64,000 nucleotides of DNA. Origin: Escherichia coli (GTDB lineage Bacteria > Pseudomonadota > Gammaproteobacteria > Enterobacterales > Enterobacteriaceae). Under the pieces are notes generated by a model. The model worked only from the letters and a program-made list of their open reading frames with translations. It made no database searches and had not been told where the DNA came from. Position 1 is the stretch's first letter. Each line of letters opens with the position of its first letter. Where the stretch lies: NCBI RefSeq assembly GCF_009931435.1, contig NZ_CP043414.1. The stretch is one strand, 5' to 3'. The position numbers and the translations under genes were made by a program. Shown piece after piece: positions 48,504 to 64,000 of the stretch.

Positions 48504-49271
48504 ATGGCAGATACCTCTTCAACCACCGCTGGCGCACAAACGTTATTACGCGGGCTCGCGGTTCTTAATGCTGTTTATAACGGCTGCCATGACCTGAAAA
48601 GTATCGGCGAGTTCACCGGCACGACCCGGAGCACAACCCATCGTTTAGTCACCGTTCTGGTGGAACAACGCTACCTGCGCCACGTCCCAACGCAGGGCTA
48701 CCAACTGGGCGCCAAACTGATCGAATTCGGTGCCAGAGCGCTGGAAAGCACCTCGCTGTACGAAGTTGCGCTGCCCGTTTTGCAACGCCTTGCCCGTTAC
48801 ACCCTGGACACCGTGCATCTGGGGATCGTTGAAGGCGACGAAGTGCTGTATCTGGAGAAGATCAACAGCCAGCGCGGGCTGGAAATGCGCTCACGCCCAG
48901 GCCATCGCATGCCACTGGCAATCACCGGCATCGGCAAGGCATTGATCCTCAACCGAACAGAAGAAGAGTGGCGCACGCTGTTTAAGACCTGTGGTGATGA
49001 AACAAAACTGGGCGCATTTATTCAGAACATGCGTCGTTATGCCGCGAGTGGTTTTGCTTTTGATCTGGAAGAGAACGAGCCGACTATCCGTTGCGTTGCA
49101 GCGCCGGTTTACAACGCCCGGGATGAAATTGTGGCGGCTATTTCTGTCGCCAGTACCACTACGTATATGTCACTGGCGCGTCTGGAAGAACTGGCACCTT
49201 ACGTCAAATCCTGTGCAGAAGAGATATCCGCTGAACTGGGCTGGGGTAAGCACGTCCGCAAAAATAAATAA
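48504..49271 (+). CDS. IclR-family transcriptional regulator
   Basis: Start chosen at MADTSSTTAGAQTLLRGLAVLNAV (aggag RBS); N-terminal wHTH plus C-terminal effector-domain pattern typical of IclR regulators. Confidence 0.8.
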   Translation: MADTSSTTAGAQTLLRGLAVLNAVYNGCHDLKSIGEFTGTTRSTTHRLVTVLVEQRYLRHVPTQGYQLGAKLIEFGARALESTSLYEVALPVLQRLARYTLDTVHLGIVEGDEVLYLEKINSQRGLEMRSRPGHRMPLAITGIGKALILNRTEEEWRTLFKTCGDETKLGAFIQNMRRYAASGFAFDLEENEPTIRCVAAPVYNARDEIVAAISVASTTTYMSLARLEELAPYVKSCAEEISAELGWGKHVRKNK

Positions 49272-49294
49272 ACCATGACTAAAGGAAACGGCTA

Positions 49295-50299
49295 ATGTCG
49301 GGAAACACCTCATTTATTGCCCTGGACTGGGGAACGTCATCGCTTCGGGCATGGCGTTTTGGCGATTCACCAAATCCACAAGAAAAACGTGAATTCCCGT
49401 GGGGGATCATGAAATTACCCTCCCAGGCAGCAACACGTGAGGACGCTTTCCACGATACGTTTTTACGTGTCTGCGGCGACTGGCTGGCACAATCCCCATG
49501 CCCGGTTCTGGCTTGCGGCATGATCGGCAGTGCGCAAGGGTGGCAACCCGCAGCTTATTTACCTTGCCCGGTCACTCTCGAGGGTCTGGCAAAGCAGTTG
49601 ACGCCTGTTATCCACCAGCAGCAGACAATGCTGCATATTATTCCTGGCGTGATTAAAGAAGGTGAAATGCCCGAAGTAATGCGTGGTGAAGAGACACAAA
49701 TCTTCGGTGCTATCTCGATGGAACCGGCCCTGCAAAACGCGATCCGCCAGGGTATGCCTGTGCTGATTGGCTTACCTGGCACACATGCGAAATGGGCGGT
49801 AGTTGAAAACAACACCATTACCGATTTCCGAACCTTTATGACTGGCGAGTTATTTGATGTTTTATCCCGCCATTCGATTCTCGGTGCCACCATGCGTTCG
49901 GGAGATGAACCGCACTGGGATGCCTTCACCCATGGGCTGACAGCAGCACAAGAGCATCATCAGACCGGATTATTATCGACGCTGTTTTCGACCCGTTCGC
50001 GCCTGCTGACCAGTAATCTTACGCCGTCCTCACAGGGGGATTACCTTTCAGGATTACTGATAGGCCATGAATTATGCGGTCTGGCATCCAGTTTGCTACG
50101 TGATTTACCCGCCACAACACCGATCGCCTTAATCGGTAGCGCCACTCTGAACAGCCGCTATTCACAAGCATTCAGCCACGTTTTTCCCGACAGACAGCTA
50201 CACGCCATTCCTAATGCCACTGAACAGGGGTTATGGCGAATCGCCCACGTTGCCGGGCTACTCTCCACCAACGCCAGGGAATGTACCCATGCCATTTAA
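49295..50299 (+). CDS. 2-dehydro-3-deoxygalactonokinase-like sugar-acid kinase (DgoK family)
   Basis: 334 aa; N-terminal IALDWGTSSLRAW and VMRGEETQIFGA / TGELFD..LS.HS.LGA / LSGLLIG motifs align with E. coli DgoK as I recall it. Confidence 0.8.
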   Translation: MSGNTSFIALDWGTSSLRAWRFGDSPNPQEKREFPWGIMKLPSQAATREDAFHDTFLRVCGDWLAQSPCPVLACGMIGSAQGWQPAAYLPCPVTLEGLAKQLTPVIHQQQTMLHIIPGVIKEGEMPEVMRGEETQIFGAISMEPALQNAIRQGMPVLIGLPGTHAKWAVVENNTITDFRTFMTGELFDVLSRHSILGATMRSGDEPHWDAFTHGLTAAQEHHQTGLLSTLFSTRSRLLTSNLTPSSQGDYLSGLLIGHELCGLASSLLRDLPATTPIALIGSATLNSRYSQAFSHVFPDRQLHAIPNATEQGLWRIAHVAGLLSTNARECTHAI

Positions 50300-50918
50300 T
50301 ACGCTTTTGCAAAAAACCGGGTTAGTCGCCATTTTACGCGGCGTGAAACCGGATGAGATTGTCGCCATCGGTGAAAAGCTGTATGCCGCTGGATTTCGCC
50401 TGATTGAGATTCCCATGAACTCGCCGGAGCCGTTGCAAAGTATCAGTTTACTGCGCGACGCCCTGCCTAAGGACTGCCTGGTCGGAGCCGGAACGGTGCT
50501 TTCGGTGGAGCAAGTCGTCGCGGTTAAAGAGGCTGGAGGCCAGATTATCGTGATGCCGCATTGCGATACTGCGGTGATCCGTCGTGCCCGTGCGCTGGGT
50601 ATGTATTGTGCGCCTGGCGTCGCTACGCCCACCGAAGCTTTTGCTGCCATTGAACATGGCGCCAATGCCATCAAGCTGTTCCCGGCTGAACAAATTACGC
50701 CTGAAGTCACCAAAGCCTGGCGTGCGGTTATTCCACAATCCGTTCCGATGTTACCGGTTGGCGGTATCACTCCAGACACAATGGCGCGTTATCTGAGCCA
50801 CGGCGCAAACGGCTTTGGCCTCGGTTCTGCGCTATATCGCCCCGGCATGACGCCAGAGCAAGTCTATGAAAATGCAGTACTGTTTATGAACGCATGGAAC
50901 AATTTAAATAGCAAATAA
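50289..50918 (+). CDS. 2-dehydro-3-deoxy-6-phosphogalactonate (KDPGal/KDPG) aldolase-like
   Basis: Start at MPFNTLLQKTGLVAILRG (209 aa), overlapping the kinase gene by 11 bp; AILRG...EIP.NSP...GAGTVL...GG(I/V)TP motifs of the Eda/DgoA family. Confidence 0.8.
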   Translation: MPFNTLLQKTGLVAILRGVKPDEIVAIGEKLYAAGFRLIEIPMNSPEPLQSISLLRDALPKDCLVGAGTVLSVEQVVAVKEAGGQIIVMPHCDTAVIRRARALGMYCAPGVATPTEAFAAIEHGANAIKLFPAEQITPEVTKAWRAVIPQSVPMLPVGGITPDTMARYLSHGANGFGLGSALYRPGMTPEQVYENAVLFMNAWNNLNSK

Positions 50919-50942
50919 CTGATAAATAAGGATATAAAAGCA

Positions 50943-51917
50943 ATGATAAAACATCTTACCTTACCGAAAAAAATGGCTGCAATGGTACTTCTTGCCGGCG
51001 CTGCCCTCAGCACTGCGCCTGTACAGGCGGCCTCCTGGCCAACCAAACAAATCGAGTTAGTCGTACCCTACGCGGCCGGAGGCGGTACGGACCTGGTTGC
51101 CCGAGCCTTTGCTGATGCCGCCAAAAACCATTTACCCGTCAGCATCGGGGTTATCAATAAACCTGGCGGTGGCGGCGCTATCGGCCTGAGTGAAATCGCC
51201 GCTGCCCGCCCTAACGGTTACAAAATGGGTTTAGGCACGGTTGAACTGACCACCCTTCCCAGCCTCGGAATGGTGCGTTTTAAAACCAGCGACTTTAAAC
51301 CCATTGCCCGTCTGAATGCGGATCCGGCGGCTATCACCGTCCGTGCCGATGCGCCGTGGAATAGCTATGAAGAATTTATGACTTACGCCAAAGCGAATCC
51401 CGGAAAAGTACGCATTGGTAACTCAGGCACCGGAGCAATCTGGCATCTGGCGGCAGCTGCACTGGAAGACAAAACGGGCGTGAAGTTTTCTCATGTCCCG
51501 TATGACGGCGCAGCCCCTGCCATTACAGGCCTGTTAGGCGGGCATATTGAAGCGGTTTCCGTAAGCCCAGGTGAAGTTATCAATCATGTGAAAGGCGGCA
51601 AGCTGAAGACACTGGTAGTGATGGCGGATGAACGTATGAAAACCATGCCTGACGTCCCGACGTTAAAAGAGAAAGGCGTTGATCTCTCCATCGGCACCTG
51701 GCGCGGCCTGATTGTGTCGCAAAAAACGCCGCAGGATGTGGTGGATGTGCTGGCAAAGGCAGCAAAAGAGACGGCTGAAGAGCCTGCATTCCAGGATGCA
51801 CTGCAAAAGTTGAATCTCAACTATGCATGGCTTGATGGTGCCAGCTTCCAGACCCAAATCAACGAGCAGGAAAAGTACTTTGACGAGCTTCTGACTCGCC
51901 TGGGCCTGAAAAAATAA
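50943..51917 (+). CDS. tctC: tripartite tricarboxylate transporter, periplasmic substrate-binding protein (TctC/Bug family)
   Basis: 324 aa; signal peptide then ASWPTKQIELVVPYAAGGGTDLVAR, typical Bug-family N-terminus. Confidence 0.8.
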   Translation: MIKHLTLPKKMAAMVLLAGAALSTAPVQAASWPTKQIELVVPYAAGGGTDLVARAFADAAKNHLPVSIGVINKPGGGGAIGLSEIAAARPNGYKMGLGTVELTTLPSLGMVRFKTSDFKPIARLNADPAAITVRADAPWNSYEEFMTYAKANPGKVRIGNSGTGAIWHLAAAALEDKTGVKFSHVPYDGAAPAITGLLGGHIEAVSVSPGEVINHVKGGKLKTLVVMADERMKTMPDVPTLKEKGVDLSIGTWRGLIVSQKTPQDVVDVLAKAAKETAEEPAFQDALQKLNLNYAWLDGASFQTQINEQEKYFDELLTRLGLKK

Positions 51918-51933
51918 TCCCGAGGTACGGTCG

Positions 51934-52440
51934 ATGAACACAAAACAGTCTGTTGCTCAACTCGCCGTACCGCACCGCAAGCGCCTTTCATCCACTGTGG
52001 TGGTGGCGCTGTTACTTTGTGTGGTTGCTGGCGCGGTGATAATTAATGCCGCTGATTTTCCAGCAACTGCCATTGAAACGGATCCCGGTGCAAGTGCCTT
52101 CCCTACTTTCTATGCCTGCGCTCTGATTGTGCTCGCTGTCTTACTGGTGATACGCGATCTTTTGCTGGCAAAACCAGTCCCTTGCGCCAACGCACAGGAA
52201 AAACCGGCATTAAGGAAAACGGCAACAGGAATTGCGGCAACCGCGTTTTATATTGTGGCGATGAGCTACTGCGGTTATCTCGTTACTACTCCTGTTTTCC
52301 TCATCGTCATTATGACGTTGATGGGCTACAGGCGATGGGTACTCACTCCGGGTATTGCGCTGCTGTTAACGGCAATCCTCTGGTTGCTGTTTGTCGAAGC
52401 GTTACAGGTGCCATTGCCTGTCGGCACATTTTTCGAATAA
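51934..52440 (+). CDS. tctB: tripartite tricarboxylate transporter small membrane subunit (TctB-like)
   Basis: 168-aa 4-TM protein between tctC-like and tctA-like genes. Confidence 0.7.
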   Translation: MNTKQSVAQLAVPHRKRLSSTVVVALLLCVVAGAVIINAADFPATAIETDPGASAFPTFYACALIVLAVLLVIRDLLLAKPVPCANAQEKPALRKTATGIAATAFYIVAMSYCGYLVTTPVFLIVIMTLMGYRRWVLTPGIALLLTAILWLLFVEALQVPLPVGTFFE

Positions 52441-52452
52441 CAGGGGCCTGCA

Positions 52453-53943
52453 ATGTTTGAAAGTGAACTTTTAACTCAGGGGTTTTCGACATTACTCAGT
52501 AATCCTCAGGCGCTGCTGTTTGCCACGTTTGGAGTGATGCTGGGTATTATGATTGGCGCTCTGCCTGGCCTGACAGCGACCATGGGTGTGGCGATTTTGC
52601 TGCCTTTCACCTACGGCATGGAGCCTGTTTCTGGCTTGTTGATGATTTGCGGTGTCTTTTTTGGTGGTGTGTATGGTGGTTCTATCACCGCAATTTTGCT
52701 CAAAATTCCCGGTACACCTGCCGCCGCTGCCACCGCCATTGACGGTTATGAGTTAACGAAGCAGGGAAAAGCCGGGCTGGCATTAAGTGCCGCCACGTTC
52801 TCTTCTTTTAGCGGTGGAACGCTCAGCATTATCGTATTGATGTTTCTCTCTCCGGTCCTTGCTAGTTGGGCGTTGAAATTTAGTGCCTCGGAGTCCTTCG
52901 CCCTGGCAACCTTCGGACTGAGCATTATTGCCAGTATTTCCGGTGAGTCGCTGATTAAAGGGCTGATCGCCGGGATTGGCGGATTAATGATCGCAACGAT
53001 AGGCCTCGATCCGATGGGCGGTTTTCCACGCTTTACGGGCGGGTTTGTGGAACTGATGAATGTGCCATTTATCCCGGTGATGATTGGTCTGTTTGCTGCT
53101 TCAGAAGCGTTCCGTTCTATGGAACAAAATCAGCATATTCGTCAGAGCGCGAACGTGGCTATCGGCAGTCTGTTACTGCCCTGGCAAACGCTACGCCGCA
53201 TCGCATTAACCATTTTGCGCTCATCAGGATTAGGGGTTTTTATCGGCATGATCCCCGGTGCGGGGGCAGATATTGCAGCTTTTGTTGCCTATAACGAAAC
53301 TCGTCGTTTCAGTAAGACGCCTGAAAACTTTGGTAAGGGTGAGATTAAGGCGGTGGCCTCCTGTGAGGCAGGCGCGAATGGCTGCACCGGTGGCGCATTG
53401 TTACCTATGCTGACGTTGGGGATCCCAGGCGATGCGGTAACTGCCATCATGCTGGGCGCGTTAACGTTACAAGGGATGCAGCCAGGCCCACTGATGTTTA
53501 CCGACCACGGCGATATGGTTTATACGTTATTTGTCGGCATGATCTTCTGTTACTTCATGCTGCTAGTTCTTGGACTGCTCTCTTTGAAAGTCATCGGTAA
53601 CGTGGTGAAAATTCCCGGCAATATTCTCACACCGATGATCCTCGCACTTTGTGTGGTCGGGACTTATGCGTTGAACAATAGCCTGTTTGATGTTGGCATT
53701 ATGCTGATTGCAGGCGTGGTGGGCTATTTCATGCAAAAAGGGGGATATCCGGCATCACCCGTAGTGCTGGCATTGATTATGGGGCCAATGGCGGAAAGTA
53801 ATTTTCGCCGTGCGCTGTCGCTTTCAGGGGGGTCACTCGACTTCCTGTATACCCGACCGATAACCCTGGCATTGCTGACACTGGCAGCCTTTACGCTACT
53901 GACGCCAATAATACGCAAAATTATGCGCTTACGGCGTCAGTAA
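52453..53943 (+). CDS. tctA: tripartite tricarboxylate transporter large permease subunit (TctA-like)
   Basis: 496-aa polytopic membrane protein with duplicated GxPGxxA / IPGxPA-type motifs. Confidence 0.85.
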   Translation: MFESELLTQGFSTLLSNPQALLFATFGVMLGIMIGALPGLTATMGVAILLPFTYGMEPVSGLLMICGVFFGGVYGGSITAILLKIPGTPAAAATAIDGYELTKQGKAGLALSAATFSSFSGGTLSIIVLMFLSPVLASWALKFSASESFALATFGLSIIASISGESLIKGLIAGIGGLMIATIGLDPMGGFPRFTGGFVELMNVPFIPVMIGLFAASEAFRSMEQNQHIRQSANVAIGSLLLPWQTLRRIALTILRSSGLGVFIGMIPGAGADIAAFVAYNETRRFSKTPENFGKGEIKAVASCEAGANGCTGGALLPMLTLGIPGDAVTAIMLGALTLQGMQPGPLMFTDHGDMVYTLFVGMIFCYFMLLVLGLLSLKVIGNVVKIPGNILTPMILALCVVGTYALNNSLFDVGIMLIAGVVGYFMQKGGYPASPVVLALIMGPMAESNFRRALSLSGGSLDFLYTRPITLALLTLAAFTLLTPIIRKIMRLRRQ

Positions 53944-54918: not shown

Positions 54919-55179
54919 ATACAACTCCTCTGTGAATCGGTTTAGTCAGAAGAAGCAAAAAGACACTTTACCGAAGGGTTTAACATTTTTTCGTGACACT
55001 CATCACCTTGATGCAAATGCGTTGCATAAATTTACCCAGCAAAAGTGATGCGAATCACATAAATCACTCTTCATTCTGCATGACTGCATAAAAGATGAGC
55101 CGATTCAGGCAATGTGATTTGTTGCATGCTGACTATAGTTAACATTGCGCAACATTTTTATAAGGGTACGGAGAATACC

Positions 55180-55989
55180 ATGGCAACAACACAACAATCT
55201 GGATTTGCACCTGCTGCATCACCTCTCGCTTCGACCATCGTTCAGACCCCGGATGACGCGATTGTAGCAGGCATCACCTCTATCCCTTCACAAGGGGATA
55301 ACATGCCTGCTTACCATGCCAGACCAAAGCAGAGCGATGGCCTACTACCAGTGGTCATTGTAGTGCAGGAAATTTTTGGCGTGCATGAACATATCCGCGA
55401 TATTTGTCGCCGTCTGGCGCTGGAGGGGTATCTGGCTATCGCACCTGAACTTTACTTCCGCGAAGGCGATCCGAATGATTTTGCCGATATCCCTACGCTG
55501 CTTAGCGGTCTGGTAGCAAAAGTGCCTGACTCGCAGGTGCTGGCCGATCTCGATCATGTCGCCAGTTGGGCGTCACGCAACGGCGGCGATGTTCATCGCT
55601 TAATGATCACCGGATTTTGCTGGGGTGGGCGCATCACCTGGCTGTATGCTGCGCATAATCCACAACTGAAAGCAGCGGTGGCATGGTACGGCAAATTAAC
55701 CGGCGATAAGACGCTGAATTCACCGAAACAACCTGTTGATATCGCAACCGATCTTAACGCTCCGGTTCTCGGCTTATATGGCGGCCAGGATAACAGCATT
55801 CCGCAGGAGAGCGTTGAAACCATGCGCCAGGCGCTGCGGGCTGCTAATGCGAAAGCAGAGATTATCGTCTACCCGGATGCCGGGCATGCATTCAACGCCG
55901 ATTATCGCCCGAGCTATCATGCCGAATCTGCGAAAGATGGCTGGCAGCGAATGCTGGAGTGGTTTAAGCAGTATGGTGTTAAAAAGTAA
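55180..55989 (+). CDS. ysgA: dienelactone hydrolase family protein
   Basis: Start chosen at MATTQQSGFAPAAS (269 aa); alpha/beta hydrolase with nucleophile motif ITGFCWGG. Confidence 0.9.
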   Translation: MATTQQSGFAPAASPLASTIVQTPDDAIVAGITSIPSQGDNMPAYHARPKQSDGLLPVVIVVQEIFGVHEHIRDICRRLALEGYLAIAPELYFREGDPNDFADIPTLLSGLVAKVPDSQVLADLDHVASWASRNGGDVHRLMITGFCWGGRITWLYAAHNPQLKAAVAWYGKLTGDKTLNSPKQPVDIATDLNAPVLGLYGGQDNSIPQESVETMRQALRAANAKAEIIVYPDAGHAFNADYRPSYHAESAKDGWQRMLEWFKQYGVKK

Positions 55990-56245
55990 CGCCATAGCCG
56001 CTAAATCTGATGATTAAGCTCACACAATTTCAACGATTTTTTTAATCTCAAAACCATACAGCATCAAAAAATTTGTTGCTGTATGCCACTCTTTGACTCC
56101 CTTCACATTCGTCATCACACCACCTGTTGAATGCAAAAATTTCGTTGCTGTGCGGCAAACTTTTTTCCTGTTTTATGCCGCTTTTCTCCTGAATACTCGC
56201 TCTCAGAACAACTGGATCGTTTAAACATCAGACAGGAGATTTACC

Positions 56246-56914
56246 ATGACGCAATCCATTTTTCAGGCTCAACCCTTTGAATTACCTTTTGATCCGCGCA
56301 CAACTGCACTGGTCATGATCGACATGCAGCGTGACTTTGTCGAAGCAGGGGGCTTCGGTGAGGCACTGGGCAATGATGTTTCACTGGTACGCACGGCTAT
56401 CGCACCATGTACAGAGGTGCTGGCAGCCGCACGTCAAAAAGGAATTATGGTTATTCATACTCGTGAAGGCCATCGTGCAGACTTAAGCGACTGCCCGCCA
56501 GCCAAACTGACGCGCGGCGGAAAAACCTTTATTGGTGAACCAGGACCGATGGGACGCATTCTGGTCAGAGGTGAAGCGGGTCATGACATCATTCCTGAAC
56601 TGTACCCAGTGACAGGCGAACCGGTGATTGATAAGCCCGGTAAAGGCGCTTTTTATCAAACCGACTTACATCTGATTTTGCAAAACCACGGTATCAAGAC
56701 GCTGATAGTTTGTGGTGTAACAACCGAAGTTTGCGTAACCACCACCGTGCGCGAAGCAAATGACCGTGGCTATGAATGCATTATCCCGGAAGATTGTGTC
56801 GGCTCATATTTCCCGGAATTCCAGAAATATGCCCTCGAGATGATCAAAGCACAAGGTGCCATTTTCGGTTGGGTGAGTGATTCCAAAGCCATTATTGCAG
56901 GTCTGGAAGGCTAA
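56246..56914 (+). CDS. isochorismatase-family cysteine hydrolase (RutB/BiuH-like amidohydrolase)
   Basis: 222 aa; D-K-C triad context (ALVMIDMQRDF, DKPGKGAF, VCGVTTEVC) and a C-terminal FGWVSDS block resembling RutB as I recall it. Confidence 0.75.
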   Translation: MTQSIFQAQPFELPFDPRTTALVMIDMQRDFVEAGGFGEALGNDVSLVRTAIAPCTEVLAAARQKGIMVIHTREGHRADLSDCPPAKLTRGGKTFIGEPGPMGRILVRGEAGHDIIPELYPVTGEPVIDKPGKGAFYQTDLHLILQNHGIKTLIVCGVTTEVCVTTTVREANDRGYECIIPEDCVGSYFPEFQKYALEMIKAQGAIFGWVSDSKAIIAGLEG

Positions 56915-56919
56915 CGCCG

Positions 56920-57780
56920 ATGGTACAGGTGACGCTTTGCGCATCATCGTTGGGATATCTTTTCCCGCAAAATGAAACGCAAGATTTACGTCTGCATAGT
57001 GCTTTTAAACATGCGGTAAATCTGTATTCAGAAGCGGGAACATTCATCACTCTGTTGTGTGCGCAAACGTATCTGAATCTCCCTGATGCCGCCAGAGTCA
57101 ACCTGCCTGAGAATTGGGACTGGCGAAGAGAGATTGCCCATTCAGATCCCATTCAGTTAACCCCAGGCTTGTTACAAACACCTCGCTTTTGCGTGGTGCT
57201 TCATAACACAACACTTTGGCAACCGCCATTTGTGGGGGGAATGCTGACACTTGAGGCATTCCCTTTGGTTTTCCAGCACTACCCAACGATGGCATCGCAA
57301 CGGCTTTTATTTTGTCTGGAGCATAACGTTCAAAGCACATTGCACCTGCCGGATAGTCTCACGCACCAGGGATTAGCGATTATGGAACATCCAGATGCAC
57401 TGGAACGCCAGGTGCCACAACTGATCGGCTTTGGTAAAGGCTTAACGCCCGATGGAGATGACTATTTGTTGGGCTATCTGGCAGCGCTCTGGTTATGGCA
57501 ACTCCCTGCAACACTTGCCGATCATCAATACCGGTTGCAGCAGGCAATTGATCAACATGCGCACAACACCACGGATATCAGTCGTCATTATCTGGAGCGT
57601 GCGCTTCAGGGGCATTTTTCAGAACCGATTTGCCAGTTACTCGCACAACTGGTTGGGGGCGCATCGGAAATGACAATCGCATCCTGTGCAGAACAGGTCA
57701 TGCAATTTGGCGCAACGTCAGGAGTAGATTGCCTTGCAGGAATGCTGCATGGCTTTCGAACCCTGAACACCATGAATTGA
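56920..57780 (+). CDS. DUF2877-like protein (YlbF/YahE-like putative carbamoyltransferase subunit)
   Basis: 286 aa, 6 bp after the hydrolase gene; GFGKGLTPDGDDYLLG motif; assignment to DUF2877 is from memory of the LTPxGDD signature and the conserved position next to FdrA-like/DUF1116 genes. Confidence 0.55.
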   Translation: MVQVTLCASSLGYLFPQNETQDLRLHSAFKHAVNLYSEAGTFITLLCAQTYLNLPDAARVNLPENWDWRREIAHSDPIQLTPGLLQTPRFCVVLHNTTLWQPPFVGGMLTLEAFPLVFQHYPTMASQRLLFCLEHNVQSTLHLPDSLTHQGLAIMEHPDALERQVPQLIGFGKGLTPDGDDYLLGYLAALWLWQLPATLADHQYRLQQAIDQHAHNTTDISRHYLERALQGHFSEPICQLLAQLVGGASEMTIASCAEQVMQFGATSGVDCLAGMLHGFRTLNTMN

Positions 57781-57874
57781 TTTCAACCTTTTCTCCCGTA
57801 GCCCATTTATGGCGCTACACGGGGATGCTTTGCCCGAATTTTGCTATCGGGCGGAATAAAACAGGCGTAACAGC

Positions 57875-59434
57875 ATGAAAGTTAAATATAAAGTTTTCAG
57901 CAATCTTTATCAGGACTCGGTTTCTCTGATGCAGATTTCCGCGCAAATCAGTAAGTTGCCCGGTATTCAACAGGCCTCGGTCGTCATGGGAACACCCAAT
58001 AATCTCGAACAATTGCGCGATGCGGGTCTGGGTAACGAAATCAACGCCAGTCCCAATGATTTAGTGATTGCAGTCATGGGTGAAGAAGATATTTGCAATG
58101 AAGCACTGATACTGGCCCAGCAACGTCTGACCAGCAAACCCGATGATGAAACGGATAGTGGCATTAAAACACCGGAAAATGTCAGCCTGGAAATGGCACT
58201 GGAAGCCGACACCGAAGCCAACCTGGCACTCATTTCTGTACCGGGAGACTACGCCGCCGCCGAAGCAATTAAAGCGTTAAACCTCGGAATGAACGTGATG
58301 ATGTTCAGCGATAACGTCAGTATCGGGCAGGAAAAATCCATCAAAACACTTGCCCGAGAACGTCAGCGCATCGTAATGGGACCTGATTGTGGAACCGCCA
58401 TTGTTAACGGCATTCCGTTAGGCTTCGCTAATGTGGTGAAACGCGGAGCAATTGGTGTTATTGGCGCGTCAGGCACCGGGCTACAGGAAGTGACTTGCCG
58501 AATCGACCAGCTCGGAGCGGGTATTTCTCAGGCGTTGGGAACAGGCGGGCATGATCTCAGTGAAGAGATTGGTGGAATATCGATGCTCTTCGCTTTAGAT
58601 GCGCTGGCGCAAGACGATGAAACTCGCGTGATTGTGCTTATTTCAAAACCGCCTTCACCGATCGTTGCCCGGGCTATTCTGGAGCGCGCCGAGGCTTGTG
58701 GAAAACCCGTGGTGGTGAATTTCCTCGGTGCGAATCCGCATGATCTGGCACGTCCCAATATCACCGCTGCCGCCACACTTGCCAGCGCCGCAAATATCGC
58801 CGTGGCAGTACTGAATGATCAGCCACTTCCGACTGTCGAGACCGAGATTTCCTGCGACGATCTCACAATGTTACAAAACGCCTGCCAGCGTCTGCCAGCC
58901 CATCGCCAGGCGATACGCGGTGTTTTCGCCGGAGGAACCTTCTGTTACGAAGCGCAACTTATCTGCCAGCAAAAGGGATTCAGCGCCGCCTCCAATACGC
59001 CAGTTGCGGGTAATCGTACTCTGGCAAATATCTGGCAAAGCAAAGGTCACACGCTGATCGATATGGGCGACGATGATTTCACCCGTGGCAAACCGCATCC
59101 AATGATCGACCCGACTCTGCGCAATCAACGTCTGCTCAACGAACTCAACGACTCACACACTGCCGTCGTGTTATTCGACCTGGTACTTGGTTATGGCGCT
59201 TCCGCTACGCCTGCCAGCGAATTACTGGACCAACTTTCACACATCGACATGAATAACGCACCGTTGCTGATTGCGCACGTTTGCGGAACGGAAGCTGATC
59301 CGCAAATACGCAGTCAGCAGATAAGCGCACTACAAAATGCGGGCATCATCATTGCCAGCAGCAATGCACAGGCGGCGCTATGGGCCAGCGCCGTTGCGCA
59401 GACTCAGTTGCAGAAAAAGGGGCTAAACGCATGA
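57875..59434 (+). CDS. FdrA-like protein (CoA-binding/succinyl-CoA-synthetase-like fold)
   Basis: 519 aa; N-terminus YQDSVSLMQISAQISKLPGIQQASVVMGTPNN aligns with E. coli FdrA; internal NVMMFSDNV, MGPDCGT and VIGASGTG motifs. Confidence 0.8.
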   Translation: MKVKYKVFSNLYQDSVSLMQISAQISKLPGIQQASVVMGTPNNLEQLRDAGLGNEINASPNDLVIAVMGEEDICNEALILAQQRLTSKPDDETDSGIKTPENVSLEMALEADTEANLALISVPGDYAAAEAIKALNLGMNVMMFSDNVSIGQEKSIKTLARERQRIVMGPDCGTAIVNGIPLGFANVVKRGAIGVIGASGTGLQEVTCRIDQLGAGISQALGTGGHDLSEEIGGISMLFALDALAQDDETRVIVLISKPPSPIVARAILERAEACGKPVVVNFLGANPHDLARPNITAAATLASAANIAVAVLNDQPLPTVETEISCDDLTMLQNACQRLPAHRQAIRGVFAGGTFCYEAQLICQQKGFSAASNTPVAGNRTLANIWQSKGHTLIDMGDDDFTRGKPHPMIDPTLRNQRLLNELNDSHTAVVLFDLVLGYGASATPASELLDQLSHIDMNNAPLLIAHVCGTEADPQIRSQQISALQNAGIIIASSNAQAALWASAVAQTQLQKKGLNA

Positions 59435-60855
59435 ATACCTTATTTAATCAGCCTTTGAAGGTCGTGAACGCGGGACTACACAGTTTTGCTGACAATATTC
59501 AACATGCCGGGGGAAGCGCAATTGCACTCAACTGGCAGCCACCAGCACAAGGCGATATTGACGCTGGATTGGATCTGGCATCGTTGCTACGTCATCCACT
59601 AGTAGAAAATGCCAATCAAATCGCCATGACACGTTATCTCGAAGCACAACCCGTGCTGGTGGATGTCATGCTCGCTAAAGAGGCCATTCCAGCAATGGCT
59701 GAACAAAAACGTATTTTGCACTCTGGTCCGCCGATTGCCTGGGAAGAGATGTGTGGTCCGGTAAAAGGGGCGATTATTGGTGCCATGCTGTACGAAGGTT
59801 GGGCCACCAGCCAGCAAGACGCTGAAAACCAGATAAACACAGGCGAAATCGACCTTGCCCCTTGTCATCATTATCACGCGGTTGGACCAATGGCAGGCAT
59901 CATCAGCCCGTCGATGCCGTTATGGGTGGTAGAAAACAAAACCAACGGCCACCGTACTTTTAGCAATTTCAATGAAGGTCTGGGTAAGGTTCTCCGTTTT
60001 GGTGCCAATAACGATGAAGTTCTCAATCGTCTGGCCTGGATGCGCGATGAACTGGCACCGGCAATGAAAGCAGCAATCGCACAACACGGCGAGCTGGAAC
60101 TCAAGCCATTAATGGCGCAGGCGCTGCATATGGGGGATGAAGTTCATAACCGCAATGCTGCCGCTACCGGTTTGCTGATTAAGCGCCTGCTCCCGGCATT
60201 GCTGGCCTGCTCTATTCCACAGGAACATATCCAGCGCGTCGTGGCATTTATCACCAGTAACGATCACTTCTTCCTCAATCTGTCGATGGCTGCCTGTAAA
60301 GCGATGATGGATGCCGCCGCCAATGTACCGTTCAGTTCAATGGTTACGGTGATGGCGCGTAACGGGGTGAATTTTGGTATTCGGCTTTCCGGTACTGGCG
60401 ATCGCTGGTTCCAGGCTCCTGCCAATGCAGTTGAAGGTCTGTTCTTCCCCGGATTTGGCGTCGACGATGCCGCTGCTGACCTGGGTGATAGCGCAATTAC
60501 CGAAACCGCAGGTGTGGGTGGCTTCGCGATGGCGTCATCTCCAGCGATCGTCAAATTTGTGGGAGGCACCCCTGCCGATGCCACCAATAACAGCCGTAGG
60601 ATGCAAGCAATCACCCTCGGTGGTAACCCCGCATTTACACTTCCTGCCCTCAATTTTGCCCCCACCGCAGCAGGGATTGATGCGCGTAAAGTGACCGATC
60701 GCGGCATTTTACCGGTCATCAATACGGGTATCGCCCACAAACAAGCGGGGGTCGGGCAAATTGGTGCCGGGATCACCACTGCGCCGATGGCCTGTTTTGT
60801 CGCCGCTGTACGTGCACTGTCTGAGATCGTCGCAAAGGAGAACCATCATGGTTAA
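59431..60855 (+). CDS. DUF1116-family protein (YlbE/YahG-like)
   Basis: Start at MNTLFNQPLKV, overlapping the FdrA-like stop (ATGA); 474 aa; family call from memory. Confidence 0.7.
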   Translation: MNTLFNQPLKVVNAGLHSFADNIQHAGGSAIALNWQPPAQGDIDAGLDLASLLRHPLVENANQIAMTRYLEAQPVLVDVMLAKEAIPAMAEQKRILHSGPPIAWEEMCGPVKGAIIGAMLYEGWATSQQDAENQINTGEIDLAPCHHYHAVGPMAGIISPSMPLWVVENKTNGHRTFSNFNEGLGKVLRFGANNDEVLNRLAWMRDELAPAMKAAIAQHGELELKPLMAQALHMGDEVHNRNAAATGLLIKRLLPALLACSIPQEHIQRVVAFITSNDHFFLNLSMAACKAMMDAAANVPFSSMVTVMARNGVNFGIRLSGTGDRWFQAPANAVEGLFFPGFGVDDAAADLGDSAITETAGVGGFAMASSPAIVKFVGGTPADATNNSRRMQAITLGGNPAFTLPALNFAPTAAGIDARKVTDRGILPVINTGIAHKQAGVGQIGAGITTAPMACFVAAVRALSEIVAKENHHG

Positions 60856-61804
60856 GCCACTGGCTGTTGTCGCAGTTGGCGGCAATGCGCTCATTCAGGA
60901 CGAGCAACGCAATAGTATTCCCGATCAATATGTTGCAGTGATGGAAAGCGTGCAGCATATCGTTGATATGGTTGAAGCCGGATGGGACCTGGTGCTTACC
61001 CACGGTAATGGCCCGCAGGTGGGCTTTATTCTGCGCCGCTCTGAACTCGCCAGTAACGAAGTTTCTCCGGTTCCACTTGATTACGCCGTGGGTGATACAC
61101 AAGGTGCAATTGGCTACATGTTCCAGAAAGCGCTGCATAACGAATTGGCTCGCCGTGGCATAAACAAACCGGTAATTGCGCTGGTGACACAAACGCGAGT
61201 CTGCCCACATGACGATGCTTTCACCAGCCCCAGTAAACCGATTGGCGCGTTTCTCGATGAAGCAACGGCCCTACAACGCCAACAGCAACTCGGCTGGACG
61301 CTGATGGAGGACGCCGGGCGTGGTTGGCGGCGTACAGTTCCCTCTCCTGCGCCACTGGAAATTATTGAGCACGACACCATCGCTCACCTGGTGCGCCAGG
61401 GATATCTGGTTATTGCCTGCGGCGGTGGCGGTATTCCGGTGGTGCGAGACGGACAACAACTGAAAGGTGTGGAAGCCGTGATCGATAAAGATCTGGCCTC
61501 CGCGCTGCTCGCCAGTCAGTTAGGCGCAGATCTGCTGGTGATCCCCACCGGTGTAGAAAAAGTGGCGATTAACTTTGGTACACCACAACAACAGTGGCTC
61601 GACGCTATCAGCGTTGCCGAAGCGCAAACGCTGTTACGGGAAGGTCAGTTTGGTGTCGGCAGTATGCAGCCCAAAGTGGAAGCCATTGTTGATTTCATCA
61701 ATGCCAGCCAACAACAAGGCAAACAGGCCAGCGGCCTGATTACTTCACCGCAAACCATAAAAGCAGCCCTTTCGCATCAGAGCGGCACATGGATAACCCT
61801 TTAA
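60848..61804 (+). CDS. carbamate kinase
   Basis: 318 aa; VVAVGGNAL and THGNGPQVG amino-acid-kinase motifs; 8-bp overlap with the upstream gene. Confidence 0.85.
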   Translation: MVKPLAVVAVGGNALIQDEQRNSIPDQYVAVMESVQHIVDMVEAGWDLVLTHGNGPQVGFILRRSELASNEVSPVPLDYAVGDTQGAIGYMFQKALHNELARRGINKPVIALVTQTRVCPHDDAFTSPSKPIGAFLDEATALQRQQQLGWTLMEDAGRGWRRTVPSPAPLEIIEHDTIAHLVRQGYLVIACGGGGIPVVRDGQQLKGVEAVIDKDLASALLASQLGADLLVIPTGVEKVAINFGTPQQQWLDAISVAEAQTLLREGQFGVGSMQPKVEAIVDFINASQQQGKQASGLITSPQTIKAALSHQSGTWITL

Positions 61805-61820
61805 TTCTCTGGAGAACTCA

Positions 61821-62210
61821 ATGACTACAACACTTTTAGCCGTTAACGGAACGCTGATGCGTGGCCTGGAACTCAACCCAAATATGCAAAAAGCGGGCGG
61901 CATTTTTGTCCGTGAAGACCGAACTGACGCCCATTACAGGTTGTGGAGTATTAACGATCGTCATCCGGGAATGATTCGCGTGAATGAAGGAGGAACACAC
62001 GTCGACGTAGAAATTTGGCAATTACCACTGACCAGTTTTGCCGCTCTGTTAATGAGCGAACCCGCTGGGCTGGCAATTGGCAAAATCAAACTTGCCGATG
62101 GTAGCGAAGTGCTGGGCGTACTGGCAGAAAACTGGCTGACCGAAGGCCAACGGGAAATTACAGAACTGGGTAGCTGGCGCAAATACACCGGGCATTTTCA
62201 TACTGTGTAA
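61821..62210 (+). CDS. small cytoplasmic protein of unknown function (possibly GGCT/AIG2-like or allophanate-hydrolase C-terminal-domain-like)
   Basis: 129 aa, no TM segment; NGTLMRG near the N-terminus weakly resembles the YGSL(x)RG motif of gamma-glutamyl cyclotransferase-like folds. Confidence 0.45.
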   Translation: MTTTLLAVNGTLMRGLELNPNMQKAGGIFVREDRTDAHYRLWSINDRHPGMIRVNEGGTHVDVEIWQLPLTSFAALLMSEPAGLAIGKIKLADGSEVLGVLAENWLTEGQREITELGSWRKYTGHFHTV

Positions 62211-62235
62211 CGCGCATTTTTAAAGGGAACATACT

Positions 62236-63459
62236 ATGCGTAAAAAAGAAGAGAATCTGAATACAGCATCAGGATTGCGTATTGCCATGATTTTACTGGG
62301 TATTGCCGTCACACCTGTGCTGTTGTCATCCTCAAGCCTCGGCAATCAACTTTCCAGCGGCAGTTTAATTAGCGTCGTATTGTTAGGCGGCGTCATTCTG
62401 ACCTTACTTTCAGCCATCACCATTAGCGTGGGAGAAAAAGCCCGCCTGCCAACGTATGGCATTGTGAAATATTCGTTTGGCGAAAAAGGGGCCATCGCCA
62501 TTAACATTTTGATGGCGATAAGTCTGTTCGGCTGGATTGCCGTTACCGCCAATATGTTTGGTCATTCGGTACATGACTTACTGGCTCAACATGGACTGGA
62601 AGTTCCACTAGCACTGTTAGTGGCTGCTGGCTGTGTCATTTTTGTCGCCTCTACAGCATTTGGTTTTGCCGTTCTGGGAAAAATTGCCCAGGTTGCCGTG
62701 CCGGTTATCGCGCTGGTGCTGTGTTACATCCTCTATGTGGCAACCCATACCGAAGTGGCAGCACCAGCGGTGATTGTGGAGATGAATACGGGTGTCGCTG
62801 TTTCCACCGTTGTTGGCACCATTATTGTGCTGGTTGCCACACTGCCTGATTTCGGTAGTTTTGTGCATAACCGCAAACATGCGCTGATTGCCGCAGGCGT
62901 GACGTTTCTGGTTGCCTACCCTCTGCTCTACTGGGCGGGAGCAACGCCGAGCGCCATTAGTGGTCAGGGATCTTTACTGGGTGCGATGGCGGTATTCGGT
63001 GCGGTTCTGCCCGCGGCGCTGTTGTTGATTTTCGCCTGCGTCACCGGTAACGCGGGCAATATGTTCCAGGGCACGCTGGTGGTTTCCACACTGCTTACCC
63101 ACTTTCCCAAATGGCAGATTACCGTGGCGCTGGGTATCCTTTCCGCCATCGTAGGCAGTCTGGATATTATGGCGTGGTTTATTCCGTTTCTGCTGTTCCT
63201 GGGTATCGCCACGCCACCCGTTGCCGGAATTTATATCGCTGACTTTTTCCTTTATCGCCGTAATGGCTATCAAGAGTCAGTGTTAGCCCAGGAGTCACAG
63301 ATCAAAGTGCTGACATTCGCAGCATGGATCATAGGTGCAGCGGTTGGCTTTATGACCGTAAAAGGCTTATTCACCCTGACGACAATCCCTTCGGTAGACT
63401 CGATTCTGGTGGCATGTATCGCGTATGCGATTCTCAGTCGGGCAAGTCAACGCCGCTAA
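62236..63459 (+). CDS. NCS1-family nucleobase permease (CodB-like)
   Basis: 407-aa polytopic protein; C-terminal ATPPVAGIYIADFFLYRRNG resembles CodB AIPPVGGVIIADYLMNRR. Confidence 0.8.
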   Translation: MRKKEENLNTASGLRIAMILLGIAVTPVLLSSSSLGNQLSSGSLISVVLLGGVILTLLSAITISVGEKARLPTYGIVKYSFGEKGAIAINILMAISLFGWIAVTANMFGHSVHDLLAQHGLEVPLALLVAAGCVIFVASTAFGFAVLGKIAQVAVPVIALVLCYILYVATHTEVAAPAVIVEMNTGVAVSTVVGTIIVLVATLPDFGSFVHNRKHALIAAGVTFLVAYPLLYWAGATPSAISGQGSLLGAMAVFGAVLPAALLLIFACVTGNAGNMFQGTLVVSTLLTHFPKWQITVALGILSAIVGSLDIMAWFIPFLLFLGIATPPVAGIYIADFFLYRRNGYQESVLAQESQIKVLTFAAWIIGAAVGFMTVKGLFTLTTIPSVDSILVACIAYAILSRASQRR

Positions 63460-63536
63460 TTCCTGGGTATACTCAGGCAATGATTACGGCTGAATCTGGA
63501 GAGATTCAGCCACTTTACCACTGACCAGGGAGCCTT

Positions 63537-64000
63537 ATGTTCATCTCAGACGAAACGCTTCGTGTTATTCATCTGGTCGCCAGACACCAGAGCATTACCA
63601 CCGCAGCCGAACAGTTAAATAAAGTCCCTTCCGCCATCAGTTACACCATCAAGAAAGTGGAAGAGAGCCTGGGCGTTGAACTGTTCATTCGTAAGGGACG
63701 CTATATTGAATTATCTCCGGCGGGGAGTTACTTCATCGAACATAGCAAAACTATTCTGGGCGACCTGGAAGCATTAAAGCGCAACACAGTGCTGATTCAC
63801 GATGGTATTGAACGTGAACTGACAATTGCGGTGAACAATATTATTCCTGGTGATTTGCTGGTGGCATTTATTCGAGATTTTGAACGGCAATTCACATCAA
63901 CAACACTGACGGTAGATCTTGAGGTATACAACGGCTGCTGGGATGCGCTGTACAGTAAGCGTGCTGATCTGGTCTACGGTGCTCCTCATGCAGTGCCAAG
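63537..64000 (+). CDS. LysR-family transcriptional regulator, 5' part (continues beyond window)
   Basis: N-terminal HTH (LRVIHLVARHQSITTAAEQLNKVPSAISYTIKKVEESLGVELF); not MetR by sequence. Confidence 0.8.
   Translation, partial: MFISDETLRVIHLVARHQSITTAAEQLNKVPSAISYTIKKVEESLGVELFIRKGRYIELSPAGSYFIEHSKTILGDLEALKRNTVLIHDGIERELTIAVNNIIPGDLLVAFIRDFERQFTSTTLTVDLEVYNGCWDALYSKRADLVYGAPHAVP

What the first reader, a model, noticed from the sequence alone, without database searches (positions are those of the whole stretch)
56040..56160. Two related imperfect palindromes in the operon promoter region
acagcatcaaaaaatttgttgctgt (56058-56082) and atgcaaaaatttcgttgctgtg (56131-56152) share a core of gcA-caaaaa-ttt-gttgctgt and lie about 70 bp apart, 90-190 bp upstream of the first gene. 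They resemble tandem operator sites, for example for the downstream LysR regulator or a nitrogen regulator.
Basis: seen in the sequence. Interest (0 to 1): 0.35.

Follow-up and report, generated by a model that had tools for sequence, protein, structure and literature searches.

The report
Paired LysR-type operators flanking a CRP site
The two similar sequences are real, evolutionarily conserved control sites in front of an uncharacterised nitrogen-compound breakdown operon of E. coli, most likely docking sites for the operon's own LysR-family regulator with a cAMP-CRP site between them; a well-supported but ordinary kind of bacterial gene switch.

Summary
Site 1 (56058-56082, extendable to 56055-56085) is a strong palindrome (p about 0.004 against shuffles). 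Site 2 (56131-56152) matches it at 16 of 18 bases without gaps, 69 bp downstream, but is only weakly palindromic.

Both sites lie in the promoter of an 8-gene accessory island inserted between ysgA and metE. In 21 Enterobacterales promoters both are conserved blocks. A matrix built without E. coli scores them 28.5 and 23.0 bits, and no other site in the window's 128 kb (both strands) reaches 12.

The motif (GCAnCAAA-N3-TTTGnTGC, core TCAA-N5-TTG) recurs before the same operon from Vibrionaceae to Neisseriales, where the orthologous LysR gene sits next to it. It resembles the validated operator of PunR, the closest characterised relative, which has a nearly identical recognition helix.

Inferred layout:
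- Site 2 at about -65 and a degenerate copy at about -43 form a typical LysR recognition/activation pair.
- These precede a conserved -10 (AATACT) with a poor -35.
- A conserved CRP-like site lies at about -104.5.
- Site 1 at about -134 is an auxiliary operator.

Spacings between species differ by whole helical turns. No binding was tested. This is a new member of a known kind and of moderate interest.

The parts
56058..56082 (.). Site 1: distal palindromic operator, dyad centre 56070, about -134 from the inferred start. The core 21-mer in matrix register is 56061-56081 (GCATCAAAAAATTTGTTGCTG). In E. coli the palindrome extends to 56055-56085.
   Evidence: palindrome, p about 0.004. block B (invariant ATC...TTG in 21 genera). 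(28.5 bits with a matrix built without E. coli rows).
56092..56107 (.). CRP-like site TTTGACTCCCTTCACA (9/10 of the TGTGA-N6-TCACA core), centre 56099.5, about -104.5.
   Evidence: 1 mismatch., block C (TG and TCACA nearly invariant). (fixed distance from site 1; distance to site 2 changes by whole helical turns). (core 8-9/10 in most genera).
56130..56150 (+). Site 2: promoter-proximal operator AATGCAAAAATTTCGTTGCTG, the inferred recognition site (RBS), centre 56139, about -65.
   Evidence: block D. (23.0 bits). (the only copy kept in the divergent lysR-operon regions of Neisseriales). (still the best hit in the plasmid copy).
56152..56172 (+). Block E: GCGGCAAACTTTTTTCCTGTT, a degenerate copy of the motif 22 bp downstream of site 2. 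This is the inferred activation site (ABS), centre about -43, overlapping the weak -35.
   Evidence: invariant AA, TT, CT. (E. coli score 3.6-4.6 bits, within the top 0.05-0.07% of window positions; mean across 21 genera -6.9 against a background of -32.4 +/- 10.8; best in register 0).
56192..56197 (+). Inferred sigma-70 -10 hexamer AATACT (TATACT in most genera). The poor -35 lies around 56168-56174 (CTGTTTT). Inferred start is about 56204.
   Evidence: block F (T, C, T invariant). (61-62 nt from the start of site 2 in Enterobacterales). (no consensus sigma-70 promoter was found by the strict scan, which fits activator dependence).
56009..56048 (.). Block A: invariant TCACA (56020-56024) followed by CAACnATTTTTTT. 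Possibly a second, weaker CRP site (centre 56016.5, core 8/10 in E. coli) and/or a degenerate third operator. Role unexplained.
   Evidence: CACA invariant in 21/21. (core 5-8/10; 83-85 bp upstream of the block C site in 20 genera). (motif hits here in Serratia, Citrobacter and Rahnella, but below 3 bits in E. coli).
56246..63459 (+). The regulated operon: BiuH-like cysteine hydrolase, AllH-like DUF2877, FdrA/AllF-like, AllG-like DUF1116, carbamate kinase, stand-alone allophanate-hydrolase C-terminal domain protein, and NCS1 permease.
63537..64000 (+). 5' part of the LysR-family regulator gene, which runs off the window (full length 298 aa in L001 21587-22483). This is the presumed binder of sites 1 and 2.
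   Evidence: HTH_1 plus LysR_substrate domains. (best family PunR at 289 bits, then AllS at 216 bits). (recognition helix VPSAISYTIKK conserved in the operon-linked orthologues and in PunR).

Best explanation
Sites 1 and 2 are operators for the island-encoded LysR-type regulator, a member of the PunR/AllS clade. They belong to an activator-dependent, catabolite-controlled sigma-70 promoter of the 7-gene catabolic operon.

Inferred mechanism:
- A regulator tetramer occupies site 2 (recognition site, about -65) and the degenerate copy in block E (activation site, about -43, overlapping a poor -35).
- On binding the pathway's inducer, it recruits or repositions RNA polymerase at the conserved -10 (AATACT).
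- cAMP-CRP binds the conserved TTTGA-N6-TCACA site at about -104.5, on the same helical face as classical class I positions. It bends the DNA.
- Site 1, the most symmetrical and probably highest-affinity copy at about -134, lies a fixed 29 bp upstream of the CRP centre. It binds further regulator, which cooperates with the proximal complex through the CRP-induced bend. This either reinforces occupancy or forms a repression loop without inducer.

Shown here: sequence conservation, motif specificity, linkage with the regulator gene, spacing rules, and similarity to the PunR operator. Inferred: who binds, the transcription start, activation versus repression, the role of site 1, and the inducer.
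For: (1) Phylogenetic footprint. In 21 Enterobacterales promoters both sites, the CRP-like site, block E and the -10 are the conserved blocks, and the sequence between them is free to vary.

(2) Specificity. A 21-nt matrix built without E. coli rows scores site 1 at 28.5 bits and site 2 at 23.0 bits. Only 3 of 127,960 window positions reach 12 bits, and all 3 are these sites. Across 80 loci, motif hits occur at 1.83 per kb in the 400 bp upstream against 0.019 per kb in coding sequence.

(3) Taxa not used for training carry the motif before the same operon: Vibrionaceae, Shewanella (perfect GCGTCAAAAATTTTGACGC, a T-N11-A box), Halomonas, Thorsellia, Aeromonas, Burkholderiales, Dyella, Neisseriales and Pseudovibrio. 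Mycobacterium and Chloroflexi versions have none.

(4) The LysR orthologue (39-50% identity) lies directly upstream of, or divergent from, the first gene in 19 of these loci. In Neisseriales the classic divergent region holds one site, a GCAATTT element and a -10-like hexamer.

(5) The regulator's best family is PunR (289 bits), followed by AllS. PunR's ChIP-exo/EMSA-validated operator is TsttwTCAAwAwwwTTGaaGGCA (PMC8376909). My matrix picks exactly that site as the only hit of 7 bits or more in the 4-kb punR locus, at 14.0 bits. The recognition helices are nearly identical: VPSAISYTIKK against VPSAVSYTVRQ.

(6) Geometry. Block E is a degenerate copy 22 bp after site 2. The -10 lies 61-62 nt from the start of site 2. 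Site 1 to CRP distance is constant. CRP to site 2 distance is 40.5-41.5, 50.5-52.5 or 30.5 bp in different lineages, and site 1 to site 2 is 69-71, 79-81 or 100-103 bp, so the differences are whole helical turns.

(7) In the plasmid-borne copy site 2 stays the top hit (11.2 bits) while site 1 has decayed (2.5 bits). This fits site 2 being primary and site 1 auxiliary.
Against: - No binding, expression or transcription-start data exist for this promoter. All positions relative to +1 rest on an inferred -10.
- In E. coli and most enterics the strict T-N11-A rule is not met (T-N11-T or T-N11-C). Site 2 is barely palindromic.
- Block E scores well only in some genera.
- A CRP centre at -104.5 is far upstream for direct class I activation.
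- By itself a 9/10 core match is not rarer than chance in 64 kb: 3 were found and 2.1 expected.
- Sites 1 and 2 lie about 6.6 helical turns apart, so not on the same face without a bend.
- The chromosomal PunR, with a nearly identical recognition helix, could bind instead of or as well as the island regulator.
- The plasmid copy tolerates loss of site 1.
- The regulator gene lies at the 3' end of the cluster in E. coli rather than divergent, and no motif copy precedes it.
Confidence: 0.7

Rival explanations
1. The sites are bound mainly by the core-genome regulator PunR (YdhB) or another PunR/AllS-clade LysR protein rather than by the island's own regulator. This would place the operon in the purine/adenine-responsive regulon.
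For: The PunR operator core TCAA-N5-TTG equals the core of site 1. PunR's recognition helix is nearly identical to that of the island regulator. My matrix recovers the validated PunR site. The operon looks related to purine/ureide catabolism.
Against: The flanks differ: the island has GCA...TGC and PunR has sTT...AAGGCA. The PunR site scores only 14 bits against 23-29 bits for the island sites. The motif travels with the island-type LysR gene in taxa from Vibrionaceae to Neisseriales, including the classic divergent arrangement. The module carries its own regulator on plasmids as well.
Confidence: 0.12
2. Site 1 acts as an RNA hairpin, either a terminator or processing signal for read-through from ysgA or a leader structure, and its resemblance to site 2 is secondary.
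For: The region 56045-56100 folds at -14.7 kcal/mol, z = -5.2 against shuffles. The island replaced the K-12 ysgA/metE terminator, so ysgA has no other obvious terminator.
Against: No U-run follows the stem. The element is conserved in genera where ysgA is not the upstream gene. Conservation is at the level of specific bases (ATCAA...TTG) with a free A/T centre, as expected for a protein site. The same motif occurs non-palindromically at site 2 and in divergent lysR intergenic regions. It lies upstream of the conserved -10, so it would not be in the operon mRNA. There is no Rfam match.
Confidence: 0.05
3. The sites belong to a nitrogen-control system: NtrC enhancer sites with a sigma-54 promoter, or NAC.
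For: The operon plausibly releases ammonia from a nitrogen-rich compound.
Against: The best sigma-54 match is 7 of 11 specified bases. The best NtrC match is 8 of 12 and lies in the unconserved spacer. The only 5/6 NAC box lies at 55994, outside the conserved blocks. The conserved -10 is sigma-70-like.
Confidence: 0.03
4. The similarity is a chance resemblance of A/T-rich intergenic DNA with no function.
For: The region is A/T rich. A shared 8-mer in 256 bp is not rare by itself.
Against: Shuffle tests give p of about 0.004 and 0.007. Both blocks are conserved in 21 genera at fixed spacing. Upstream enrichment over coding sequence is 96-fold.
Confidence: 0.02

Closest known systems
PunR (YdhB) operator upstream of punC in E. 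coli K-12 (PMC8376909)
   Same: The regulator is the closest characterised relative (289 bits to the PunR model) and has a nearly identical recognition helix. The operator is an A/T-centred imperfect palindrome with the same core, TCAA-N5-TTG. It lies upstream of the target promoter and was also predicted by phylogenetic footprinting. My matrix finds the validated PunR site.
   Different: The score is below the PunR equivalog cut-off (345), so the island protein is not PunR. The flanks differ (GCA/TGC against sTT/AAGGCA). There are two strong copies plus a degenerate one rather than one site. A CRP site lies between the copies. The regulator gene is not divergent in E. coli. The target is a catabolic operon, not a transporter.
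Canonical LysR-type promoter architecture: RBS near -65 with a T-N11-A dyad and ABS near -35 to -45 (established knowledge, e.g. BenM/CatM, CbnR, OccR)
   Same: Site 2 centre is at about -65. A degenerate copy lies 22 bp downstream and overlaps a weak -35. The -10 is conserved. Orthologous sites in Shewanella, Vibrionaceae and Edwardsiella are perfect T-N11-A dyads.
   Different: Positions rest on an inferred start. The E. coli sites deviate from strict T-N11-A. The most symmetrical copy is the distal one at -134, not the -65 site.
AllS control of the allDCE and allF (fdrA-ylbE-ylbF-ybcF) operons in E. coli K-12 (PMC12535856, PMC11326118)
   Same: A LysR regulator of the same clade (216 bits) activates a paralogous FdrA/DUF1116/DUF2877/carbamate kinase gene set.
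   Different: It is a different regulator, and co-regulation there is by ArcA rather than an evident CRP site. The allD-fdrA region gives only a 7.7-bit match to the island motif. The island operon has extra genes: the BiuH-like hydrolase, the AH_C protein and the NCS1 permease.
Promoters where a CRP site lies between sites for a specific regulator: melAB (MelR-CRP-MelR) and araBAD (araO1/O2 - CRP - araI). Cited from general knowledge.
   Same: A weak or moderate CRP site is flanked by two operator copies for a pathway-specific regulator. The spacing is phase-dependent, and co-dependence or loop control is a plausible logic.
   Different: Those regulators are AraC-family, not LysR-family. Their site positions differ. 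Cooperativity between this LysR protein and CRP is conjecture.

Membership tests
LysR-type regulator (LTTR) operator | Interrupted dyad of about 15-19 bp with a T-N11-A core | tested here: inconclusive
   The dyad geometry is met: GCAnCAAA-N3-TTTGnTGC, with 10-11 of 12 arm pairs at site 1. E. coli site 1 is T-N11-T and most enterics are T-N11-C. Perfect T-N11-A occurs in the orthologous sites of Shewanella, Vibrionaceae, Edwardsiella, Budvicia and Limnobaculum. Site 2 keeps only the inner core and the right arm.
LysR-type regulator (LTTR) operator | Recognition site near -65 paired with a weaker activation site near -35 to -45 of the regulated promoter | tested here: met
   Relative to the conserved -10 at 56192-56197, site 2 is centred at about -65 and block E, a degenerate copy at +22 bp, at about -43. 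The transcription start is inferred, not measured.
LysR-type regulator (LTTR) operator | A cognate LTTR gene genetically linked to the regulated operon | tested here: met
   A LysR gene closes the cluster in the E. coli chromosome and in the plasmid copy. Orthologues lie directly upstream or divergent in 19 other loci. Motif hits of 11 bits or more accompany most of these loci. The exceptions are L016, L045, L053, L055 and L058. By eye, L016, L045 and L058 carry weaker versions of the motif.
LysR-type regulator (LTTR) operator | Specific binding by the LTTR protein, modulated by a co-inducer | not testable with these tools
   This needs EMSA, footprinting or ChIP.
PunR operator (TsttwTCAAwAwwwTTGaaGGCA) | Match to the published 23-bp consensus | tested here: inconclusive
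   The core TCAA-N5-TTG is present at site 1. Site 2 has GCAA-N5-TCG. The flanks do not match (CAGCA / TTGCTG against Tsttw / aaGGCA). The island-trained matrix scores the real PunR site at 14.0 bits against 23-29 bits for the island sites.
PunR operator (TsttwTCAAwAwwwTTGaaGGCA) | The regulator is PunR (NCBIfam equivalog NF008294, cut-off 345 bits) | tested here: not met
   The island LysR scores 289.2 bits, below the cut-off. It is a paralogue, not PunR.
CRP (cAMP receptor protein) binding site | TGTGA-N6-TCACA core with 6-bp spacer | tested here: met
   TTTGACTCCCTTCACA matches 9/10. The core scores 8-9/10 in most of 21 genera, with TG and TCACA nearly invariant.
CRP (cAMP receptor protein) binding site | Centre on the helical face used for activation (-61.5 plus whole turns) and dependence on cAMP-CRP | tested here: inconclusive
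   The centre is at about -104.5 in E. coli, and one turn closer or further in other lineages. This fits the phase within the +/-1-2 bp uncertainty of the inferred start. Dependence on CRP cannot be tested here.
Intrinsic (Rho-independent) terminator | G+C-rich hairpin immediately followed by a U-run | tested here: not met
   The site 1 hairpin is stable (-14.7 kcal/mol) but is followed by CCACTCTTTGAC, with no U-run. The only terminator-like hit of the scan is a weak 5-pair stem at 56144-56156, which lies inside site 2 and block E.
Sigma-54 promoter / NtrC enhancer | TGGCAC-N5-TTGCW promoter and TGCACC-N5-GGTGCA sites | tested here: not met
   The best matches are 7/11 and 8/12, and neither lies in conserved positions.

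The most novel reading that the evidence does not exclude
The conserved rigid unit 'LysR site - 29 bp - CRP site', plus a second LysR site whose distance changes only by whole helical turns (69-71, 79-81, 100-103 bp), would reflect an obligatory LysR-CRP-LysR nucleoprotein complex, that is, direct co-dependence or a CRP-controlled loop. This mode is not established for LysR-family regulators. It would control a so far uncharacterised, probably ATP-yielding breakdown pathway for a ureide or biuret-like compound that has spread in extraintestinal pathogenic E. coli chromosomes and ColV-type plasmids.
Probability: 0.2. Interest if true: 0.55.

Novelty: new member of a known kind. Interest (0 to 1): 0.35.

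Why it matters
The operon is present in roughly a quarter of complete E. coli genomes (1499 of 5426), including Nissle 1917 and ExPEC strains, and on IncF virulence-type plasmids. It has no known substrate or regulation. A defined operator motif, an inferred promoter and a candidate regulator make it directly testable. Reporter fusions and the purified regulator could be used to screen nitrogen-rich compounds for the inducer, and so to identify the pathway's substrate. The motif also extends the PunR/AllS operator class and offers a natural case for studying how a LysR-type activator and CRP are combined at one promoter.

Tried and rejected
- Sigma-54, NtrC and NAC motifs gave no convincing match.
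- The strict sigma-70 scan found no consensus promoter on the + strand. The -10 was instead inferred from conservation.
- ArcA and CytR half-site resemblances (TGTTGC, AATGCAA) were considered by eye and dropped. The spacing rules of those regulators (11-bp direct repeats; CytR between two CRP sites about 52 bp apart) do not fit, and the conserved bases are those of the LysR-type dyad.
- An Rfam search of 55900-56400 returned only two sub-threshold chance hits.
- The intrinsic terminator reading of site 1 was rejected for lack of a U-run.
- A motif copy upstream of the lysR gene (63460-63537) was sought and not found.
- A third operator ('site 0', 56027-56047) scores below 3 bits in E. coli, although its counterpart scores 12-18 bits in Serratia, Citrobacter and Rahnella. 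Its status is left open.
- Block A as a sigma-70 promoter (CTCACA-N16-TTTAAT) was rejected because the -10-like part is not conserved.

Full report
**Context.** The window is E. coli chromosome, 100% identical to strain R32_14_1F. The finding lies in the 256-bp region between the stop codon of ysgA (55989) and the ATG of a cysteine-hydrolase gene (56246).

That gene opens an accessory cluster inserted between ysgA and metE. The cluster is absent from K-12 and present in 1499 of 5426 complete E. coli genomes. Its genes are:
- a BiuH-like cysteine hydrolase;
- AllH-like (DUF2877), FdrA/AllF-like and AllG-like (DUF1116) proteins;
- carbamate kinase;
- a stand-alone allophanate-hydrolase C-terminal domain protein;
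- an NCS1 permease;
- a LysR-family regulator that runs off the window.

Homology to K-12 stops inside the last codons of ysgA, so the whole intergenic region is island DNA. The island is 'GR 29 metE..ysgA' of a recent ExPEC comparison, which did not treat its regulation (PMC12928451).

**Observation.**
- Site 1 is a strong palindrome: 10/12 arm pairs at 56058-82, 11/12 at 56057-83, and 14-nt arms 93% complementary at 56055-68/56072-85. Only 0.4% of 2000 dinucleotide shuffles of the region do as well.
- The relation between the sites is better described without a gap. 56065-82 and 56134-51 are 16/18 identical at an offset of 69 bp, extendable to 30 nt at 77% identity. The self-alignment score is reached by 2 of 300 shuffles.
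- Site 2 itself is only weakly palindromic in E. coli.

**Conservation.** I fetched 80 loci encoding relatives of the first gene and aligned the promoter regions of 21 Enterobacterales genera or species. Six blocks are conserved and the sequence between them varies:
- A: invariant TCACA at 56020-24, followed by CAACnATTTTTTT.
- B: site 1, GCATCAA-w5-TTTGCnGC.
- C: TtTGA-N6-TCACA.
- D: site 2, TGCAAAAtTTTCGTTGCTG.
- E: CGnnAAAtcaTTTnnCTGT.
- F: TATACT (AATACT in E. coli, 56192-97), followed by the Shine-Dalgarno sequence.

A 21-nt matrix built from blocks B and D of the 19 non-E. coli rows scores E. coli site 1 at 28.5 bits and site 2 at 23.0 bits. Only three of 127,960 window positions reach 12 bits, and all three are these sites. 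Over all 80 loci, hits of 11 bits or more occur at 1.83 per kb in the 400 bp upstream of the operon against 0.019 per kb in its coding sequence.

Taxa that did not contribute to the matrix also carry the motif. They include Vibrionaceae, Shewanella (GCGTCAAAAATTTTGACGC, a perfect T-N11-A dyad), Halomonas, Thorsellia, Aeromonas, Burkholderiales, Dyella, Neisseriales and Pseudovibrio. Actinobacterial and Chloroflexi versions of the operon have none.

**Who binds.**
- The LysR orthologue (39-50% identity) lies directly upstream of or divergent from the first gene in 19 loci.
- In Neisseriales, the classic divergent lysR-operon region holds one copy of the motif, a GCAATTT element and a -10-like hexamer.
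- The E. coli protein has HTH_1 and LysR_substrate domains. It is closest to PunR (289 bits, below the 345 cut-off) and then to AllS (216 bits).
- PunR's operator was defined by footprinting in silico, ChIP-exo, fluorescence polarisation and EMSA as TsttwTCAAwAwwwTTGaaGGCA (PMC8376909). It shares its TCAA-N5-TTG core with site 1.
- My matrix picks exactly the validated PunR site as the only hit of 7 bits or more in the 4-kb punR locus (14.0 bits).
- The recognition helix VPSA(I/V)SYT(I/V)(K/R)K is shared by the island regulator, its operon-linked orthologues and PunR.
- AllS, the third clade member, activates the paralogous allF operon of K-12 (PMC12535856).

Together these make the island regulator the most likely binder, with cross-binding by PunR as the main alternative.

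**Architecture.** No consensus sigma-70 promoter is found by a strict scan, but the conserved TAnACT lies 61-62 nt from the start of site 2. If +1 is about 56204, then:
- site 2 (dyad position 56139) is at about -65;
- block E, which scores as a degenerate copy in the same register 22 bp downstream, is at about -43 and overlaps a poor -35. E. coli scores 3.6-4.6 bits, within the top 0.05-0.07% of positions. The mean over 21 genera is 2.4 SD above background and is best at register 0.

This is the textbook LysR recognition-site/activation-site arrangement. In Neisseriales the two elements are one turn further apart, while the distance from the second element to the -10 is kept.

Block C matches the CRP core at 9/10. 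Alone that is not rarer than chance (3 found, 2.1 expected in 64 kb), but TG and TCACA are nearly invariant across genera. Its centre (56099.5, about -104.5) keeps a constant distance from site 1: 28.5-29.5 bp in the register, or 29.5 bp from the dyad centre. Its distance to site 2 is 40.5-41.5 bp in most genera, 50.5-52.5 bp in Buttiauxella and Budvicia, and 30.5 bp in Vibrionaceae. Vibrionaceae keep an extra CRP-like site 28.5 bp after site 1 (by eye, from the sequence).

As a result, the site 1 to site 2 distance is 69-71, 79-81 or 100-103 bp. Changes by whole helical turns argue that the elements work together on a bent template. Site 1 at about -134 is then an auxiliary operator. Consistent with this, in the 93%-identical copy of the module on IncF plasmids the promoter region is the most diverged part, site 1 has decayed to 2.5 bits, and site 2 is still the best hit of the locus at 11.2 bits.

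**Rivals.**
- Nitrogen-control motifs are absent.
- Site 1 can fold as an RNA hairpin (-14.7 kcal/mol, z = -5.2). However, it lacks a U-run, lies upstream of the conserved -10, and is conserved where the upstream gene differs. Its conservation is base-specific with a free A/T centre. No Rfam family matches.
- Chance is excluded by the conservation data.

**Limits.** Nothing here shows binding, the transcription start, the sign of regulation or the inducer. Strict T-N11-A is not met in E. coli. Block E is a weak match in many genera. Block A (invariant TCACA, CRP-like core 5-8/10, 83-85 bp upstream of block C) remains unexplained.

**Verdict.** The LysR-operator interpretation is supported and refined: a proximal recognition/activation pair, a distal auxiliary operator, and a CRP site between them. 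The nitrogen-regulator alternative is rejected. This is a new, well-supported member of a known kind of regulatory region, attached to an uncharacterised operon. Interest is moderate.

Noticed in passing
window 56246-63459 (operon) and L001 14296-22483: The regulated cluster combines paralogues of oxamate carbamoyltransferase AllFGH and carbamate kinase with a BiuH-like cysteine hydrolase (280 bits, cut-off 370), a stand-alone allophanate-hydrolase C-terminal domain protein and an NCS1 permease. This looks like an uncharacterised, possibly ATP-yielding pathway for a ureide or biuret-like compound. A published ExPEC comparison only speculated on pyrimidine use.
   Followed up: partly
L082 (plasmid NZ_CP059918.1, 8960-17414): IncF (ColV-type) plasmids of E. 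coli (78 records) and Klebsiella (4 records) carry the whole 8-gene module at 93% identity. The promoter region is by far the most diverged part: 52-66% identity per 200 nt against 85-100% elsewhere. Many changes are to A/T, and site 1 is lost.
   Followed up: partly
window 63460-63537: The 78-bp gap between the permease and the LysR gene holds a TATACT hexamer (63469-74) and a perfect 10-bp hairpin GGCTGAATCT-GGAG-AGATTCAGCC (63488-63511) with no U-run. The gap is 100% identical between the chromosomal and plasmid copies, although the module as a whole is 93% identical. It may be the regulator's own promoter plus a leader or partial terminator. No copy of the operator motif is present here.
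   Followed up: partly
window ~55976-55989 and L086: The left end of the island lies inside the last codons of ysgA. The K-12 C-terminus GGKKSL* is replaced by VKK*, and the K-12 ysgA/metE bidirectional terminator hairpin is gone. ysgA therefore has no obvious terminator before the island promoter.
   Followed up: partly
window 56009-56048: Block A: TCACA is invariant in 21 genera, followed by CAACnATTTTTTT. It lies 83-85 bp (8 helical turns) upstream of the CRP-like site, and its left half is poorly conserved. It could be a second weak CRP site, a degenerate third operator, or something else.
   Followed up: partly
window 55044-55059: A CRP-like site AGTGATGCGAATCACA (9/10 core) lies in the udp-ysgA intergenic region. 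It is presumably the known CRP control region of udp (the assignment is from general knowledge).
   Followed up: no
L084 (K-12 allantoin cluster), e.g. 11357-11377, 8722-8742, 14888-14908, 19845-19865: The island-trained matrix gives 6 hits of 12 bits or more in 21.5 kb of the K-12 all cluster. The best is 14.9 bits at the ybbY/glxK junction. The 64-kb window has no background hits at that level. The allD-fdrA intergenic region has only a 7.7-bit match. These may be AllS/PunR-class sites or a composition effect.
   Followed up: no
window ~48500-53943 (L001 6554-11993): A second accessory cluster lies between rmuC and udp: an IclR regulator, 2-dehydro-3-deoxygalactonokinase, an aldolase and a TctCBA tripartite tricarboxylate transporter. 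From memory, it is absent from K-12 at this position; this was not checked.
   Followed up: no
window 56006-56017 and 56221-56232: A 12-nt inverted repeat (TCTGATGATTAA / TTAAACATCAGA, 92% complementary) brackets the whole regulatory region, 203 nt apart. The right arm lies in a part of the leader that is not conserved between genera, so this is probably chance.
   Followed up: no
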